A DNA stretch of 32,000 nucleotides from Candidatus Saccharimonadota bacterium (GTDB lineage Bacteria > Bacteroidota > Bacteroidia > Cytophagales > Amoebophilaceae), in the NCBI RefSeq assembly GCF_964030745.1, contig NZ_OZ034918.1, positions 210,001-242,000 on the forward strand, in the 5' to 3' direction. The notes beneath the pieces are model-generated. The model was not told where the DNA came from. It searched no databases and saw only the letters and a program-made list of their open reading frames with translations. The translations under genes were made by a program, and so were the position numbers. Below are positions 27,057 through 30,497 of this stretch, piece after piece; the first letter of the stretch is position 1; each line of letters opens with the position of its first letter.

Positions 27057-30000
27057 ATGCATATCGATTTGGTGATTATAGGAATATTCTTAATCCTAAC
27101 ACTAGCCATTGGGCTCTATTGTAGTAAAGGGATTGCAACCTTCCAAGACTATGCGGTTGGGAATAGAAAAATGGGCCAATTTATAATTGCTATTTCCATA
27201 ATAGCCACCATTTATGGGGGTAGAAGTTTGCTTGCATTAGACGATTTCTATCAGGAAAGTATTTATAAAACGCTTGATTTAATTTATTTCATTATACTAG
27301 CCTTAGTATCAAGATGCATACTCTTAAGAATGAAAGCATTCGCAGGCCATTTTTCTATAGCTGAGTCAATGGGGAGCCTTTACGGTCCAACTGTTCGAGT
27401 GATCACAGCCATCTTTGGCATACTGCTATCCATTGCTATGTTAGCACCTCAGTTTAAGGTTAGCCTAAGTATTACAAATACCCTATGGCCTGATATAGAA
27501 GGGATTTCAGCCAACTCAGGTATCATTTTAGCACTACTTGTTATAAGCTATACAACATTGGGAGGAGCTAGAGCTGTAGCACTAACAGACATATATCAAT
27601 TTTTTCTTTTTGGCGTTTGCTTCCCTATCATGATTTTTATCTGTTTATACTATGCTAAAAAGCCACTAGCTAGTTGGCAACAGCTGGCTGAACTGCCACA
27701 ACTGGCTACTAAAGAGGCACTAAGGCTGCATAAGTTATTACAAGATGGCCTATATGCATGCGTATATGGTTTATGTCATCCATTTTTTCCTGCATGGATT
27801 CAACGATTTTATATGTCATCCTCTATACAACAAGCTTCAAAAGGGTTTTATATCAGTACTTTTATCCAAGTTATCCTTACTATAGTTTGTTTAAGCATTG
27901 TGATGGCGTTGCATGTAGGTAATCATCCTATCCCATCCAACGGACATGTTATAAACTATCTGGTTAACCTGGTGCACTTTCCCGGAATACGTGGCATCTT
28001 CATAACGGCTATTATTGCTTTACTGATGTCTACTGCTGACTCTTATCTGCATATTGCTTCTGTTCTATTTACAAATGATGTATTACCTGTACTATCTGGC
28101 TCAACCCAATGGGTAAAGCAACATGCACTCAAAATTGCACGTACTGCTTCTACTTTAATAGGTATAGTCAGTAGTTTTATGATGTTCAGTATCAATTATT
28201 TTATTGAATTCCGTAACTACATAATAAGCTGCTACCCTGCACTGGTTGTTCCATTCATCATGGCCATTTTGGGTTTTAGGCCCCGCTCAACTGCCATCGT
28301 ATTAACCATCGGAATGAATATAGCCATCATAGCCTATCATTTTTTTTATAAAATCACCTTATCAGCACCTTTTCATAAATCTTTTTACTTTAGCACAATT
28401 GCTTTGATTATCACACATTATCTCCTCCCTAAACGGCCTAATACTGGCTGGGTAGGTATCAAGGACCTTAGTCCACTGGATTTGGCAAATCAAGAGACCA
28501 AACGCTGGTGGCTAAGAAGGCTACAAGATGGGAAATTACCCTTTACTAAAGCCTATTGGCAAAGCCGCTTTCCAAAACGGAAATCCACCTTCATACTATT
28601 GGGCATCTATTTCATTATCCATACTTTTATAGCTCTTTGCTTTATGCAGAAAAGCTACTTTGCTCCTTATATCTATTGGTATATTCTGGTCATGGCCTTT
28701 GGAACGACCTTAGCTATTTATCCATCTTTTCATAGTTATCAGCAGGGTGGTCATCCCATACTCTACTTGGCATGGCCTGTTTTGTTATTTCTATTCCTTT
28801 TTGTTTCGAGTATACAATTTGCAAAGTTAGACTACTTTCGGCCAATGGTTTTTGCATTGTTGATAGCTAGCCTAACTTTAGGCAGTGTGCTTGCTTCCTT
28901 AAAAATAGCCATTGGTATGTTGGTGCTAGCTATGATACTCCACCTATTTGTACCACCTCATATACCTTTTTGGCATTCAATTTGGACCAACTATAATACA
29001 TTGTCTATTGAGCTTGTTTTTGCCACAGCGCTTTTGGTAGCTGCATTAATAGGTTTTGGAGCCTATAAATACCTACATGACAAAATGGATACACAATTTA
29101 AAATTATAGCGCTGAACCGAAACTACGAACGCAAAGCAGCGCTAGAAGCAATCTATAACCAAGTGAACTGGTCTAGACTCCACCCCATCTACAGTAGCAA
29201 GATGTTGCGGGAAACCGAAGCCATATTGCAAGCACCTTGTTACTACTTCCATACACATGGTCAAAGAAAACTTGAAATAGATCTAAACCTCTTCATGAAG
29301 AAATTACGCAAATTCAGCAATGTACTACTAAAAAGGGTAAAAGAAGAACGTATTCTAACACTCCATCAAAAAGCAGTACAACCAGTAGACATTAACCTGG
29401 CCATCTTAAAAGCACATCATACTACACGGGCATTAGGAGAACCTATAGCCCTACTTTTAAGGAACCAAACTAAGGTAACACATCTGATAGCAGACCCGTC
29501 ACTTTTTGAACGTCTTTTAACAATAAATCTATTGGGAATTAGCAAAAGTGAACAGATTACAGACCATATAGTCACCCTAACCATTGCTGATACCGTACTC
29601 CGTTACGATACTACACTGACCCTACCTGCACTAGCTTTTCTGATTAGTACCAATACAAGCATACACAATGTAGCACACACATATGATGTCACAGGCGAAA
29701 CACTCCATACCCACCTACCTAAAACAGAGCACCAACTTTATCAAGCAGAAAGCGGGCAAATTGTTCAAGCACATGGTGGGTACGACCTGATCATAGAACA
29801 GCAGGAGGCCTTAACATGTTGTTATGTATTGCCCATAGCTGGCCAAAACGTCATGCGCTTTAAAACCTACGATCCTACTGCCTTGGGGAACAAAACAAGT
29901 GAAACAGCAGAAAGCCTAGCGCAAGAAAAGGAATTGATCGCATCGCTTGCCACGGAAACAGCCTTGACCAAAGAGATAATAGAAAAGACCATTACGTTTA

Positions 30001-30497
30001 TTAAAAACGCCCACGGGCTGGTAACACGTAAATCTGGTGCACCTTACTATACCCATCCTATGGCAGTTGCCAAAATACTATTAGAAGTTACAAAAGATCC
30101 TACAACCCTCTTAGCAGGCTTGTTACACGACATAGTAGAAGACACACCAATTCCATTGGCCCAAATAGAGCTGATGTATGGTCCTGAGGTGGCCTATATT
30201 GTAGATATGGTGACCCACTACCATACCAGTGGTTATCGATGGAAATTAGATGACATAGAAAACAAAAGTCTATTGGAGCAATGTAAAGATATTCGTGTAG
30301 TACAGGTTAAGCTAGCCGATAGACTACACAATATCAGAACCTTACATTTTCGCAAACCAGCAGATCAAAAAAGAATTGCAAAAGAGACCATGGCATTTTA
30401 TATCCCATGGGCTAAAAAAAATAAAATTTTAAACTGGATAACCGAAATGAATGATATTTGCTGGGAAATTTTAAATAAGAAAGGAACAAAGTGGTGA
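27057..30497 (+). CDS. Multi-domain membrane protein, paralog 2: SSF-like domain, second TM block, degenerate HK-like module, and C-terminal RelA/SpoT-type HD (p)ppGpp hydrolase domain
   Basis: The track ORF begins at 26967, but its first 30 codons lie inside the IS right end. The ATG at 27057 ([21 protein letters not shown]) aligns with the paralog 1 start (MQIDLVIVSLFLVLNILIGLY). The HD domain at about 29960-30440 reads [14 protein letters not shown]...[13 protein letters not shown]...[15 protein letters not shown]...[13 protein letters not shown]. Confidence 0.85.
   Translation: [1146 protein letters not shown]

What the first reader, a model, noticed from the sequence alone, without database searches (positions are those of the whole stretch)
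27057..30497. Solute-symporter-like membrane protein fused to a complete SpoT/Mesh1-type (p)ppGpp hydrolase domain
Seen in sequence: one uninterrupted reading frame joins four parts. The first is an SSF-type polytopic domain (27057 to about 28430; e.g. [16 protein letters not shown]). The second is an additional TM block (about 28560-29080). The third is a ~250 aa histidine-kinase-like module (about 29120-29880). The fourth is a ~160 aa C-terminal domain (about 29960-30440): [58 protein letters not shown]...[20 protein letters not shown]...[16 protein letters not shown]. Established knowledge: that last pattern (H..HD..ED...KLADRxHN) is the catalytic signature of the RelA/SpoT-homolog hydrolase (HD_4) domain found in SpoT, Rel and small alarmone hydrolases, and all signature residues appear intact. 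No synthetase domain follows. Inference: this would couple a transporter-like sensor directly to alarmone degradation (a 'transceptor'). SSF domains are known to be fused to sensor kinases (CbrA/CrbS type), but I do not know of an SSF-(p)ppGpp-hydrolase fusion. The convergent neighbour is an Lrp/AsnC amino-acid-responsive regulator, which fits a nutrient-sensing theme, though that link is speculative.
Basis: partly seen in the sequence, partly recalled or inferred. Interest (0 to 1): 0.8.

Follow-up and report, generated by a model that had tools for sequence, protein, structure and literature searches.

The report
Transporter-like sensor fused to alarmone hydrolase
A Cardinium insect endosymbiont encodes one real 1146-residue membrane protein that joins a sodium-symporter-like domain, a dead histidine-kinase core and an intact Rel/SpoT-type (p)ppGpp hydrolase; it probably links nutrient sensing directly to alarmone removal, but the family is already catalogued, though never characterised, across its bacterial family.

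Summary
ORF 27057..30497 (+) is a single 1146-aa gene with four parts: an SSF/LeuT-fold domain, an extra block of about 6 TM helices, a DHp+CA histidine-kinase fold, and a C-terminal HD_4 hydrolase.

- **Hydrolase:** it keeps every Rel_Seq catalytic residue.
- **Kinase-like module:** it lacks the H-box and the G1 and G2 ATP motifs, so it is a pseudokinase.
- **Source:** Cardinium endosymbiont of Philonthus spinipes.
- **Not an artefact:** more than 40 full-length homologues share the architecture across Cardinium, Amoebophilus and Amoebophilaceae MAGs, with 13 in one genome.
- **Not new as an architecture:** databases annotate both domains. Brown 2018 counts the family as 'spoT/sodium glucose cotransporter'. 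Atkinson 2011 lists the Amoebophilus HD domains as 'RickSpo' small alarmone hydrolases.
- **Possibly new here:** I found no paper in the held library that describes (a) the descent from the SSF-histidine kinases of Rickettsiales, with HD_4 where a REC domain sits in an Orientia hybrid kinase, or (b) the pattern of variable input and conserved output (SSF 46% identity, HD 71%).

The best reading is a transceptor in which solute/Na+ binding controls (p)ppGpp hydrolysis. Coupling, substrate, and whether this genome has a synthetase are all untested.

The parts
27057..30497 (+). Complete gene (1146 codons plus stop): SSF domain, TM block, pseudokinase, HD_4 hydrolase
   Evidence: ORF. Pfam SSF + HD_4 + HD. 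100%-identical 1146-aa database protein P0001. Full-length AF2 model with pLDDT 82.7.
27057..28436 (+). SSF/SLC5 (LeuT-fold) domain, aa 1-460, about 13 TM helices. Ion-site residues are retained: A50/T51, T177-D178, S325/T326, D328/S329.
   Evidence: PF00474 E 1.9e-13. TIGR00813 and PutP hits below their cut-offs. Profile vs PDB: SiaT 1.5e-27, CHT1 4e-25; the alignment places S325/T326 on SiaT S342/S343, D328/S329 on S345/S346, and D178 on D182. Foldseek to CHT1, SiaT and SGLT with TMt 0.6-0.8. These residues are invariant or nearly invariant.
28437..28580 (+). Conserved K/R-rich cytoplasmic connector, aa 461-508 (GWVGIKD..SP..L.NQ.TKRWW; amphipathic helix 472-496)
   Evidence: Nearly invariant columns G464, W465, G467, D470, R483. 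Helix in the AF2 model. Shared with the SSF-histidine kinases. No STAC or PAS hit in Pfam.
28581..29069 (+). Additional TM block, aa 509-671, read as 6 helices; the last one continues into the cytoplasmic coiled coil
   Evidence: Hydropathy peaks. AF2 helices 509-528, 532-557, 567-591, 596-612, 615-628 and 651-706. Homologous to the same block of Rickettsiales SSF-HKs. The count of 6 and the cytoplasmic C-terminus are inferred.
29070..29885 (+). Pseudokinase module, aa 672-943: DHp-like helices (to about aa 764) plus a CA-like alpha/beta domain (aa 775-926). No H-box His, no G1 or G2 glycines.
   Evidence: hhalign 94.9%, E 4.7e-8. Profile vs PDB: ZraS E 0.0019. Model m8ecd307109a9 matches only HK DHp+CA structures. 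No HisKA or HATPase_c hit in Pfam. Motif comparison.
29886..29996 (+). Linker, aa 944-980; this is the module boundary
   Evidence: HD-less paralogues end at the equivalent of aa 943. Stand-alone Cardinium HD_4 proteins begin aligning at aa 944.
29997..30476 (+). Rel/SpoT-type (HD_4) pyrophosphohydrolase domain, aa 981-1140. Catalytic residues: R991, K992, S993, Y997, H1000, H1024-D1025, E1028-D1029, D1088, N1092, T1095.
   Evidence: PF13328 E 4.9e-24. TIGR00691 N-terminal part, E 2e-41. Rel_Seq 1vj7 E 3.1e-33 with residue-by-residue alignment. Foldseek rmsd 2.4-2.7 A at 38% identity. Each catalytic position matches the window residue in 39-46 of the 47 aligned full-length members, and the metal-binding and ED residues in 45-46.
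22379..25270 (+). Upstream paralogue (963 aa): SSF, TM block and pseudokinase, without HD_4
   Evidence: 48% identical to the main gene over aa 1-943 and stops right after that. Its orthologue in L001 is 73% identical and also HD-less. The exact sequence is WP_342265500.1.
25680..27016 (-). IS5-family insertion sequence between the two paralogues. The transposase ORF is 25840..26874. The right end lies about 40 bp upstream of the ATG at 27057.
   Evidence: NF033581 IS5 transposase E 1.9e-88. DDE_Tnp_1 and DUF772. 32-nt inverted repeats at 25680-25711 and 26985-27016. Absent from the syntenic locus L001.
30544..31029 (-). Convergent Lrp/AsnC-family regulator. It is a neighbour, and I do not count it as part of a conserved system.
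   Evidence: HTH_24, HTH_AsnC-type and AsnC_trans_reg. Conserved next to the orthologue only in L001, at 75% identity.

Best explanation
The gene encodes a dimeric inner-membrane 'transceptor' of an obligate intracellular symbiont.

The N-terminal SSF domain binds, and perhaps transports, a host-derived solute together with Na+. Its conformational state is passed through the extra TM block and a DHp-like coiled coil. That coiled coil belongs to a catalytically dead histidine-kinase core, which now serves only as a dimerisation and transmission scaffold. The signal ends at a C-terminal Rel/SpoT-type, Mn2+-dependent pyrophosphohydrolase that degrades (p)ppGpp in the bacterial cytoplasm. Nutrient availability would therefore lower alarmone levels directly, without phosphotransfer.

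It is one member of a multi-paralogue battery in Amoebophilaceae. Members have divergent input domains and a conserved output domain.

How far each step is established:
- Shown here: the domain anatomy, the retained catalytic and ion-site residues, the loss of kinase motifs, homology to SSF-HKs, and the family distribution.
- Inferred: cytoplasmic location of the C-terminal modules, dimerisation, (p)ppGpp as the substrate, and allosteric coupling and its sign.

My separate estimates: a real fused gene 0.97; an active (p)ppGpp-type hydrolase 0.75; SSF-controlled activity about 0.5.
For: - **One ORF with a recurrent architecture:**
- **The HD domain looks active:** it is 38% identical to the Rel_Seq hydrolase. 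The Mn2+ ligands (H1000, H1024, D1025, D1088), the ED diad (E1028, D1029) and the nucleotide-contact residues (R991, K992, Y997, N1092, T1095) are all present, and the metal-binding and ED residues are conserved in 45-46 of 47 members.
- **The HD domain is the most conserved part:** 70.9% mean identity, against 45.5% for SSF. Among 13 paralogues of one genome the figures are 85.7% and 65.9%.
- **The SSF domain is not decayed:** residues matching the SiaT Na2 and Na3 sites and the CHT1 'MSSADS' motif are invariant, and the fold model is confident.
- **The middle module has the HK DHp+CA fold** **but lacks the H-box, G1 and G2**.
- **The nearest relatives of the first 630 aa are genuine SSF-HKs of Rickettsiales**. 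The Orientia hybrid kinase P0101 has the same layout and length, with a REC domain where HD_4 sits here. This fits HD_4 occupying an output position.
- **Precedent for SSF transceptors:** CbrA transports histidine and signals (PMC7096432, PMC7918813, PMC13022988).
- **A source of (p)ppGpp exists in the bacterial family:** Amoebophilus has one Rel[HS] plus 14 rickSpo, and an Amoebophilaceae-like MAG has an [hS] synthetase gene next to a family member.
Against: - Nothing tested here shows coupling between the SSF and HD domains, and no activity was measured.
- I could not establish that this Cardinium genome encodes any (p)ppGpp synthetase. No Cardinium-named synthetase appeared among the 120 listed hits of 372, but that list also misses the known Amoebophilus Rel, so it is uninformative.
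- HD-less paralogues (about 960 aa) are old and well conserved, so the SSF-pseudokinase unit has some role that does not need the hydrolase.
- Stand-alone HD_4 genes 73% identical to this domain exist in Cardinium, so the hydrolase also works unfused.
- About a quarter to a third of the copies in more distant Amoebophilaceae have substitutions in the HD/ED or DR..N motifs.
- The TM count of the extra block (5 or 6) is not resolved, and the cytoplasmic placement rests on homology to kinases.
- An IS5 element sits 40 bp upstream of the start codon and may affect expression.
Confidence: 0.55

Rival explanations
1. Fusion without allosteric coupling. The SSF domain is an ordinary Na+/solute importer. 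The hydrolase is a constitutive housekeeping (p)ppGpp hydrolase that happens to be tethered to the membrane. The pseudokinase is an inert relic linker.
For: The ion-site residues are fully retained, as expected of a working transporter. SSF-only (~480 aa) and HD-only (~200-220 aa) versions both exist, so each module can work alone. The kinase motifs are decayed.
Against: The pseudokinase is conserved rather than eroded: 50% identity across Cardinium, invariant Y850, Y876, H906, G908 and P926, and a confident HK fold. The architecture has been kept for a long time across Amoebophilaceae, down to 23-31% identity. The layout mirrors real signalling proteins, SSF-HK and SSF-HK-REC.
Confidence: 0.2
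2. The HD domain acts on a substrate other than (p)ppGpp, for example (p)ppApp made by toxic synthetases, or NADPH as reported for Mesh1. The protein would then serve detoxification or cofactor metabolism rather than stringent control, particularly if Cardinium has no (p)ppGpp synthetase.
For: SAHs can neutralise toxic alarmone synthetases and can be promiscuous (PMC7229694; PMC9765508 abstract). Hydrolases without a synthetase partner occur in Rickettsia conorii.
Against: The domain is far closer to long-RSH (p)ppGpp hydrolases than to Mesh1 or other SAHs (E 3e-33 against 3e-11 to 3e-12) and keeps the Rel_Seq nucleotide-contact residues. It matches no PADLOC defence family. No toxin-like neighbour lies within the window.
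Confidence: 0.15
3. A selfish or decaying expansion. The family proliferated with mobile elements, as RickSpo did in Orientia, and this copy is non-functional or on the way to becoming a pseudogene.
For: Multi-copy tandem arrays are common. An IS5 element lies immediately upstream. Split and degenerate copies exist in other genomes. RickSpo proliferation in Rickettsiales is associated with transposable elements (PMC3153485).
Against: The 1146-codon frame is intact and every catalytic and ion-site residue is present. The orthologue in another Cardinium is syntenic, with its HD domain 86% identical. Conservation is strongest at functional positions.
Confidence: 0.06
4. An assembly or frameshift artefact that joined separate genes.
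For: None was found. The only oddity is that the exact 1146-aa sequence is absent from the protein collection while its neighbours are present.
Against: More than 40 full-length homologues from independent assemblies, complete chromosomes included, share the same four-part order and length. The AF2 model is continuous and confident.
Confidence: 0.01

Closest known systems
Amoebophilaceae 'spoT / sodium:solute symporter' gene family (Cardinium, Amoebophilus; NCBI 'sodium:solute symporter family protein' or 'HD domain-containing protein'; UniRef 'Bifunctional (p)ppGpp synthase/hydrolase SpoT')
   Same: Identical four-part architecture and length. Identity is 46-63% to Cardinium members and 23-31% to distant ones. 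The family is counted as expanded by Brown et al. 2018.
   Different: Nothing architectural: this gene belongs to that family. The family itself has no experimental characterisation. The database names are misleading, since there is no synthetase domain.
RickSpo subgroup of RSH hydrolases (Atkinson 2011; Jimmy 2020)
   Same: An HD-only RSH domain derived from long RSHs. The subgroup is expanded in Rickettsiales and in Amoebophilus, with 14 copies.
   Different: The subgroup is described as small, single-domain alarmone hydrolases. Here the domain is the C-terminal 15% of a 1146-aa polytopic membrane protein. Membership of this Cardinium domain in the RickSpo HMM class was not tested here.
Rel/SpoT long-RSH hydrolase domain (Rel_Seq 1VJ7; SpoT 7QPR)
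   Same: 38% identity, rmsd 2.4-2.7 A, and all catalytic and nucleotide-contact residues present.
   Different: No synthetase, TGS or ACT domain. The regulatory partner domains are replaced by the upstream membrane sensor and pseudokinase.
Rickettsiales SSF-histidine kinases, such as Phycorickettsia P0078 and the Orientia hybrid kinase P0101 (SSF-TM-HisKA-HATPase_c-REC)
   Same: The closest relatives of aa 2-633 (28-32% identity), including the extra TM block and the conserved connector. The DHp+CA fold is shared. P0101 has the same length and domain order.
   Different: Those proteins are catalytically intact kinases (290-390 bits to the HK profile, against 16-42 bits or no hit here) and have no HD_4. 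Here the kinase is dead and the output is a hydrolase.
SLC5/STAC sensor kinases CbrA and CrbS (MxtR)
   Same: An SSF transporter domain fused to a cytoplasmic signalling module: the 'transceptor' concept. CbrA both transports histidine and signals.
   Different: CbrA and CrbS have STAC and PAS domains, no extra TM block, an active kinase and a response-regulator partner. None of these applies here.
RetS-type non-canonical histidine kinases
   Same: An HK fold used without canonical autophosphorylation. RetS structures are among the best structural matches.
   Different: RetS acts by binding another kinase (GacS). No such partner is known here. The conserved HD-less tandem paralogue is only a speculative candidate.

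Membership tests
Sodium:solute symporter family (SSF/SLC5, PF00474) | Profile match above the curated threshold | tested here: met
   PF00474 scores 50.5 bits against a cut-off of 22.8. The NCBIfam sss and PutP models hit below their family cut-offs.
Sodium:solute symporter family (SSF/SLC5, PF00474) | LeuT-type fold with conserved Na+-site residues | tested here: met
   Foldseek to CHT1, SiaT and SGLT with TMt 0.6-0.8. S325/T326, D328/S329, D178 and A50/T51 align to SiaT site residues and are invariant or nearly so.
Sodium:solute symporter family (SSF/SLC5, PF00474) | Na+-coupled solute transport | not testable with these tools
   Needs uptake assays. The substrate is unknown.
RSH hydrolase domain (HD_4, PF13328) | Profile match above threshold and the Rel/SpoT hydrolase fold | tested here: met
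   85.3 bits against a cut-off of 27.2. 1vj7 E 3.1e-33. rmsd 2.4-2.7 A.
RSH hydrolase domain (HD_4, PF13328) | Catalytic residues: H..HD..ED...D..N plus R/K/Y nucleotide contacts | tested here: met
   R991, K992, Y997, H1000, H1024, D1025, E1028, D1029, D1088 and N1092 are all present. Across the 47 aligned members they are conserved in 39-46, and the metal-binding and ED residues in 45-46.
RSH hydrolase domain (HD_4, PF13328) | Mn2+-dependent (p)ppGpp 3'-pyrophosphohydrolase activity | not testable with these tools
   Needs an enzyme assay.
Small alarmone hydrolase (SAH) in the strict sense | A single-domain protein consisting only of the HD domain | tested here: not met
   The protein is 1146 aa and the HD domain is aa 981-1140 only. 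True stand-alone versions do exist elsewhere in Cardinium.
RickSpo subgroup | Assignment by the RickSpo HMM or phylogeny of Atkinson and Jimmy | not tested
   No RickSpo reference sequences or HMM were available. Amoebophilus homologues are so classified in PMC3153485. In my searches the nearest non-family relatives were long-RSH HD domains at 42-46% identity.
Long RSH (Rel/SpoT/RelA) | Synthetase (PF04607), TGS and ACT domains | tested here: not met
   No such Pfam or NCBIfam match. TIGR00691 matches only its positions 4-168. The ORF ends 24 residues after the HD_4 match.
Sensor histidine kinase | DHp + CA (Bergerat) fold | tested here: met
   hhalign 94.9%. ZraS is the only meaningful hit of the family profile. 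The 50 best Foldseek hits are almost all sensor histidine kinases or HK-type DHp+CA modules, including a hybrid response regulator and a plant phytochrome.
Sensor histidine kinase | Conserved phospho-acceptor His (H-box) | tested here: not met
   The HK relatives have LrNv.HE.rtP. The family has iy.Qanw.RLD and the window protein reads [10 protein letters not shown]. The alignment in this helix is of low confidence.
Sensor histidine kinase | ATP-binding N, G1 (DxGxG) and G2 (GxGxG) boxes | tested here: not met
   G1 is 'IADTVLRY' and G2 is absent. Only one Asn of the N-box region and the terminal 'AHGGY' motif persist. No HATPase_c or HisKA hit in Pfam.
SLC5/STAC sensor kinases (CbrA/CrbS) | STAC and PAS domains between the SSF domain and the kinase | tested here: not met
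   No Pfam family other than SSF, HD_4 and HD at E<=0.01. The intervening region is a TM block.

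The most novel reading that the evidence does not exclude
Amoebophilaceae endosymbionts may have converted an ancestral family of SSF-histidine-kinase transceptors into a battery of transporter-gated alarmone hydrolases, with up to 13-18 paralogues per ~1-Mb genome. Each paralogue would sense a different host metabolite and feed directly into one (p)ppGpp pool. This would replace or supplement ribosome-dependent stringent control. The dead kinase core would be the transmission device, and the HD-less paralogues (such as the conserved tandem neighbour) would act as heterodimeric modulators. 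It would be the first case in which a membrane transporter domain directly controls alarmone hydrolysis.
Probability: 0.3. Interest if true: 0.75.

Novelty: new member of a known kind. Interest (0 to 1): 0.5.

Why it matters
How (p)ppGpp hydrolysis is switched by nutrient status is only partly understood even for SpoT. It is essentially unknown in obligate intracellular bacteria, which depend on imported host metabolites.

This family offers a physically explicit link between a transporter-type ligand site and a Rel-type hydrolase in one polypeptide. It also gives a natural series of variants that could be tested: SSF-only, SSF-pseudokinase, the full fusion, stand-alone HD, and copies with a dead HD.

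The analysis corrects two literatures:
- The RSH surveys count these proteins as 'small' alarmone hydrolases.
- The SSS-transceptor review covers only kinase outputs.

For Cardinium, a reproductive manipulator of arthropods, such sensors may set growth rate within host tissues.

The individual gene in this window is, however, just one more member of an already deposited and annotated family.

Tried and rejected
- **Kinase module by simple searches:** Pfam and NCBIfam gave no HisKA or HATPase_c hit, and BLASTP against an SSF-HK showed no similarity beyond aa 633. The kinase homology appeared only with profile-profile comparison and structure.
- **SSF domain against PDB:** single-sequence phmmer found nothing. 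A 25-sequence profile solved it.
- **Search for a (p)ppGpp synthetase in Cardinium:**
  - tblastn over 733 kb of fetched Amoebophilaceae loci found only one, in L022, which is not a Cardinium.
  - A database search with that synthetase listed no Cardinium or Amoebophilus name in the top 120 of 372 hits, which is inconclusive.
  - P0349, on a 1.15-Mb contig, has a neighbourhood unlike a Cardinium genome.
  - P0110, a 637-aa HD_4 protein, is not a long RSH.
  - The RSH census supplement of Jimmy 2020 is not held, and Atkinson 2011 predates the Cardinium genomes.
- **Lrp/AsnC functional link:** rejected as a general feature, since it is conserved only at the orthologous locus L001.
- **Defence-system reading:** no PADLOC match.
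- **IS-truncation origin of the HD-less paralogue:** rejected. Its orthologue in L001 is also HD-less with no IS present, and no HD remnant lies between 25270 and 25680.
- **Promoter and terminator scans:** no more matches than in shuffled sequence, so not used.
- **Exact alignment of the H-box position:** low confidence, so I claim only that no conserved His is present.

Full report
**1. Is it there?**

Yes. The window has one uninterrupted + strand ORF from 26967 to 30497. Homologues begin MxIDL at that position. A 100%-identical 1146-aa protein is in the database (P0001). The 30-codon upstream extension overlaps the right inverted repeat of an IS5 element (26985-27016).

Exact-sequence look-ups of neighbouring proteins identify the source. 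Lon is WP_342265495.1, UvrD is WP_342265497.1 and the upstream paralogue is WP_342265500.1, all from Cardinium endosymbiont of Philonthus spinipes, on a 1,093,165-bp contig. The rest of the window is ordinary housekeeping: LysRS-type synthetase, AccD, RmuC, an AAA protease subunit, RseP, Lon, MiaB-like, UvrD, DUF4290 and MurA/AroA-like.

**2. Anatomy**

(a) aa 1-460: SSF domain.
- PF00474 E 1.9e-13.
- A 25-sequence profile hits SiaT at 1.5e-27 and CHT1 at 4e-25.
- The full-length AF2 model (pLDDT 82.7) superposes on CHT1, SiaT and SGLT with TM-scores to target of 0.6-0.8.
- In the SiaT alignment, the family's S325 (invariant) and T326 (nearly invariant) fall on S342/S343, D328/S329 on S345/S346, T177-D178 on the 'TD182' motif, and A50/T51 on A56/T57. 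'MSTADS' mirrors 'MSSADS' of CHT1.
- That these SiaT positions form its Na2 and Na3 sites is my recollection of the SiaT structure paper. The alignment itself is a tool result.
- So the domain looks like a working Na+-binding LeuT-fold unit and not a decayed anchor.

(b) aa 461-508: a K/R-rich, highly conserved connector with an amphipathic helix.

(c) aa 509-671: an extra hydrophobic block, which I read as six helices.
- Parts (a) to (c) are 28% identical (E 6e-57) to an SSF-histidine kinase of Phycorickettsia over aa 2-633.
- Because those relatives need cytoplasmic ATP, the C-terminal modules here are inferred to be cytoplasmic.

(d) aa 672-943: the 'histidine-kinase-like module'.
- Pfam sees nothing here.
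- hhalign of the family alignment against the kinase cores of the SSF-HKs gives 94.9% probability, E 4.7e-8.
- The family profile's only meaningful PDB hit is the sensor kinase ZraS (E 0.0019).
- Many distant family copies hit an HK-core HMM weakly, at 16-42 bits.
- A separate AF2 model of aa 672-960 (pLDDT 79.8) matches only DHp+CA structures, among them ZraS, RetS, HK853 and CckA, with 259 hits at E<=1e-3.
- The conserved H-box of the kinase relatives (LrNv.HE.rtP), G1 (D.GiGIP) and G2 (GRG.GLAL) have no counterpart. The family has iy.Qanw.RLD and dT.L.Y, and nothing at G2.
- It is therefore a pseudokinase: the fold is kept, while phosphotransfer chemistry is lost.

(e) aa 944-980: linker.

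(f) aa 981-1140: HD_4 domain.
- E 4.9e-24.
- The best solved relative is the Rel_Seq hydrolase (E 3.1e-33). Mesh1 and other SAHs score only 3e-11 to 3e-12.
- Foldseek gives rmsd 2.4-2.7 A at 38% identity.
- Counting along the printed alignment, R991, K992, S993, Y997, H1000, H1024-D1025, E1028-D1029, D1088, N1092 and T1095 correspond to Rel_Seq R44, K45, S46, Y50, H53, H77-D78, E81-D82, D144, N148 and T151. The roles of those residues come from established knowledge of 1VJ7.
- Each of these positions matches the window residue in 39-46 of 47 full-length members, and the metal-binding and ED residues in 45-46.
- No synthetase, TGS or ACT domain follows.

**3. Family and evolution**

Distribution:
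- The first search returned about 40 full-length proteins with the same architecture from Cardinium and Amoebophilaceae (46-63% identity). Thirteen of them come from one 1.19-Mb C. hertigii genome. It also returned more distant members at 23-31% identity.
- A scan of species-representative genomes found the architecture in several Cardinium, in Amoebophilus sp., and in many MAGs with 0.9-1.45-Mb chromosomes labelled Amoebophilaceae, Cytophagales or Bacteroidota. Copies often lie in tandem arrays.
- Catalytically intact SSF-HKs appeared only in Rickettsiales loci and one Janthinobacterium locus (290-390 bits).

Comparison with Orientia:
- The Orientia hybrid kinase P0101 is SSF-TM-HisKA-HATPase_c-REC, 1145 aa long. 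It has the same plan as this protein, with REC where HD_4 sits here.

Three family architectures coexist in Amoebophilaceae:
- SSF-only, about 480 aa.
- SSF-TM-pseudokinase, about 960 aa.
- The full fusion, about 1150 aa.

Stand-alone HD_4 genes of about 200-220 aa also exist in Cardinium, 64-73% identical to this domain. They start aligning at aa 944 and have no SSF remnants upstream. HD-less paralogues end at aa 943. Residue 944 is therefore a real module junction.

Conservation is graded:
- Against 39 Cardinium members: SSF 45.5%, TM block 49.5%, pseudokinase 50.1%, HD 70.9%.
- Among 13 paralogues of one genome: SSF 65.9% rising to HD 85.7%.
- This is a pattern of variable input and conserved output.

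**4. Local context**

- Directly upstream lies an HD-less paralogue (22379..25270, 48% identical over aa 1-943).
- The same tandem, HD-less gene then HD-bearing gene then convergent Lrp, occurs in Cardinium of Nabis limbatus (L001).
- The pairs are orthologous: 73% and 60% within pairs, 46-49% across pairs. The duplication and the HD-less state are therefore old and maintained.
- In the window an IS5 element (IRs at 25680-25711 and 26985-27016, transposase at 25840..26874) has inserted between the two genes, ending about 40 bp before the start codon.
- The Lrp neighbour is found at no other locus.

**5. Mechanism**

The best-supported reading is a transceptor. Solute and Na+ occupancy of the SSF domain is relayed through the TM block and the DHp-like coiled coil of a dead kinase to a Rel-type hydrolase that removes (p)ppGpp.

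In support:
- The active-site and ion-site residues are intact.
- The pseudokinase scaffold is conserved.
- HD_4 occupies an output position in a family that descends from true sensor kinases.
- Conservation is graded from a divergent input domain to a conserved output domain.
- There is precedent in CbrA (PMC7096432, PMC7918813, PMC13022988).

A substrate source exists in the bacterial family:
- Amoebophilus has one Rel[HS] beside 14 'rickSpo' copies.
- In MAG locus L022, a 387-aa [hS] synthetase gene (degenerate HD_4 plus RelA_SpoT) lies 48 bp upstream of a family member whose own HD is degenerate (HN..QK).

Not shown: coupling, dimerisation, the substrate, topology, and whether this Cardinium has any synthetase (one search was inconclusive).

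Rivals, set out with evidence in their own section:
- An uncoupled fusion.
- A different substrate.
- A decaying expansion.
- An assembly artefact.

**6. What is known**

- NCBI calls these proteins 'sodium:solute symporter family protein' or 'HD domain-containing protein'. UniRef calls them 'Bifunctional (p)ppGpp synthase/hydrolase SpoT'.
- Brown et al. [quoted passage not shown]
- Penz et al. 2012 mention Na+/proline symporters, alongside transposases and repeat proteins, among the gene classes left out of their table of horizontal-transfer candidates.
- Atkinson et al. 2011 place the Amoebophilus HD domains in the SAH subgroup RickSpo and do not mention a membrane part.
- Jimmy et al. 2020 regard RickSpo as long-RSH-derived, which fits my Rel-like result.
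- The SSS review, which focuses on SSS-kinase fusions, mentions no ppGpp or HD output.
- The architecture is therefore recorded but uncharacterised. In the papers I could search, the pseudokinase and the SSF-HK ancestry are not described.

**7. Verdict**

- The novelty claim is not supported at the level of the architecture.
- This gene is a new member (at most 63% identity to any listed homologue) of a known but unstudied family.
- Interest is moderate at 0.5. The family is a good experimental handle on nutrient control of alarmone hydrolysis in endosymbionts, but finding one more copy is not surprising in itself.

Noticed in passing
window 22379-25270 (+): A 963-aa paralogue (SSF, TM block, pseudokinase) lacks the HD domain. 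It forms a conserved tandem pair with the HD-bearing gene: the pair is orthologous in Cardinium of Nabis limbatus, and the HD-less member is the better conserved of the two (73% against 60%). It may be a heterodimer partner or modulator.
   Followed up: partly
window 25680-27016: An IS5-family element with 32-nt imperfect inverted repeats has inserted between the two paralogues. It ends about 40 bp upstream of the ATG at 27057, so it may disrupt or replace the native promoter. It is absent from the syntenic locus L001.
   Followed up: partly
L022 599-1762 and 1810-5313: In an uncultured Cytophagales (Amoebophilaceae-like) MAG, a 387-aa RSH with a degenerate HD and an apparently intact RelA_SpoT synthetase domain lies 48 bp upstream of a family member whose hydrolase motifs are dead (HN..QK, KLAESVVN). 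This could be a sensor and synthetase pair. The synthetase also hits PADLOC candidate family PDC-S33 (E 5.8e-12).
   Followed up: partly
L049 6001-6660; L050 6001-6660 (Cardinium assembly GCA_003788695.1): Two identical stand-alone 219-aa HD_4 genes are 73% identical to aa 944-1142 of the window protein and have no SSF or pseudokinase remnants upstream. The hydrolase module therefore exists both free and fused in Cardinium.
   Followed up: yes
L029 6249-17745: An array of six consecutive family genes in one MAG: one full fusion and five SSF-only genes of about 470-495 aa, four of them back-to-back. SSF-only members also occur in L005, L020, L043 and L044.
   Followed up: no
L003, L004, L026, L027, L029, L030 and the second copies in L020 and L040 (HD regions listed): About a quarter to a third of family copies in more distant Amoebophilaceae carry substitutions in the HD..ED or DR..N motifs (for example ED to EN, EG or DT). 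This suggests that pseudo-hydrolase sensors sit alongside active ones.
   Followed up: partly
window 27057-30494: The exact 1146-aa sequence is not in the 15-billion-protein collection, although its neighbours from the same RefSeq genome are (WP_342265495, WP_342265497, WP_342265500). In RefSeq the gene may have a different start (the 1176-aa form from 26967) or be flagged as a pseudogene.
   Followed up: no
P0101 (Orientia tsutsugamushi, 1145 aa): This hybrid kinase, SSF-TM-HisKA-HATPase_c-REC, has the same length and domain order as the Cardinium protein. SSF-HKs with the extra TM block appear to be a Rickettsiales-centred family distinct from the STAC/PAS-containing CbrA/CrbS type. Shared ancestry or lateral transfer between Rickettsiales and Amoebophilaceae is possible.
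   Followed up: partly
window 4959-6356 (-): A 465-aa ORF with no Pfam match sits among housekeeping genes. I did not examine it further.
   Followed up: no
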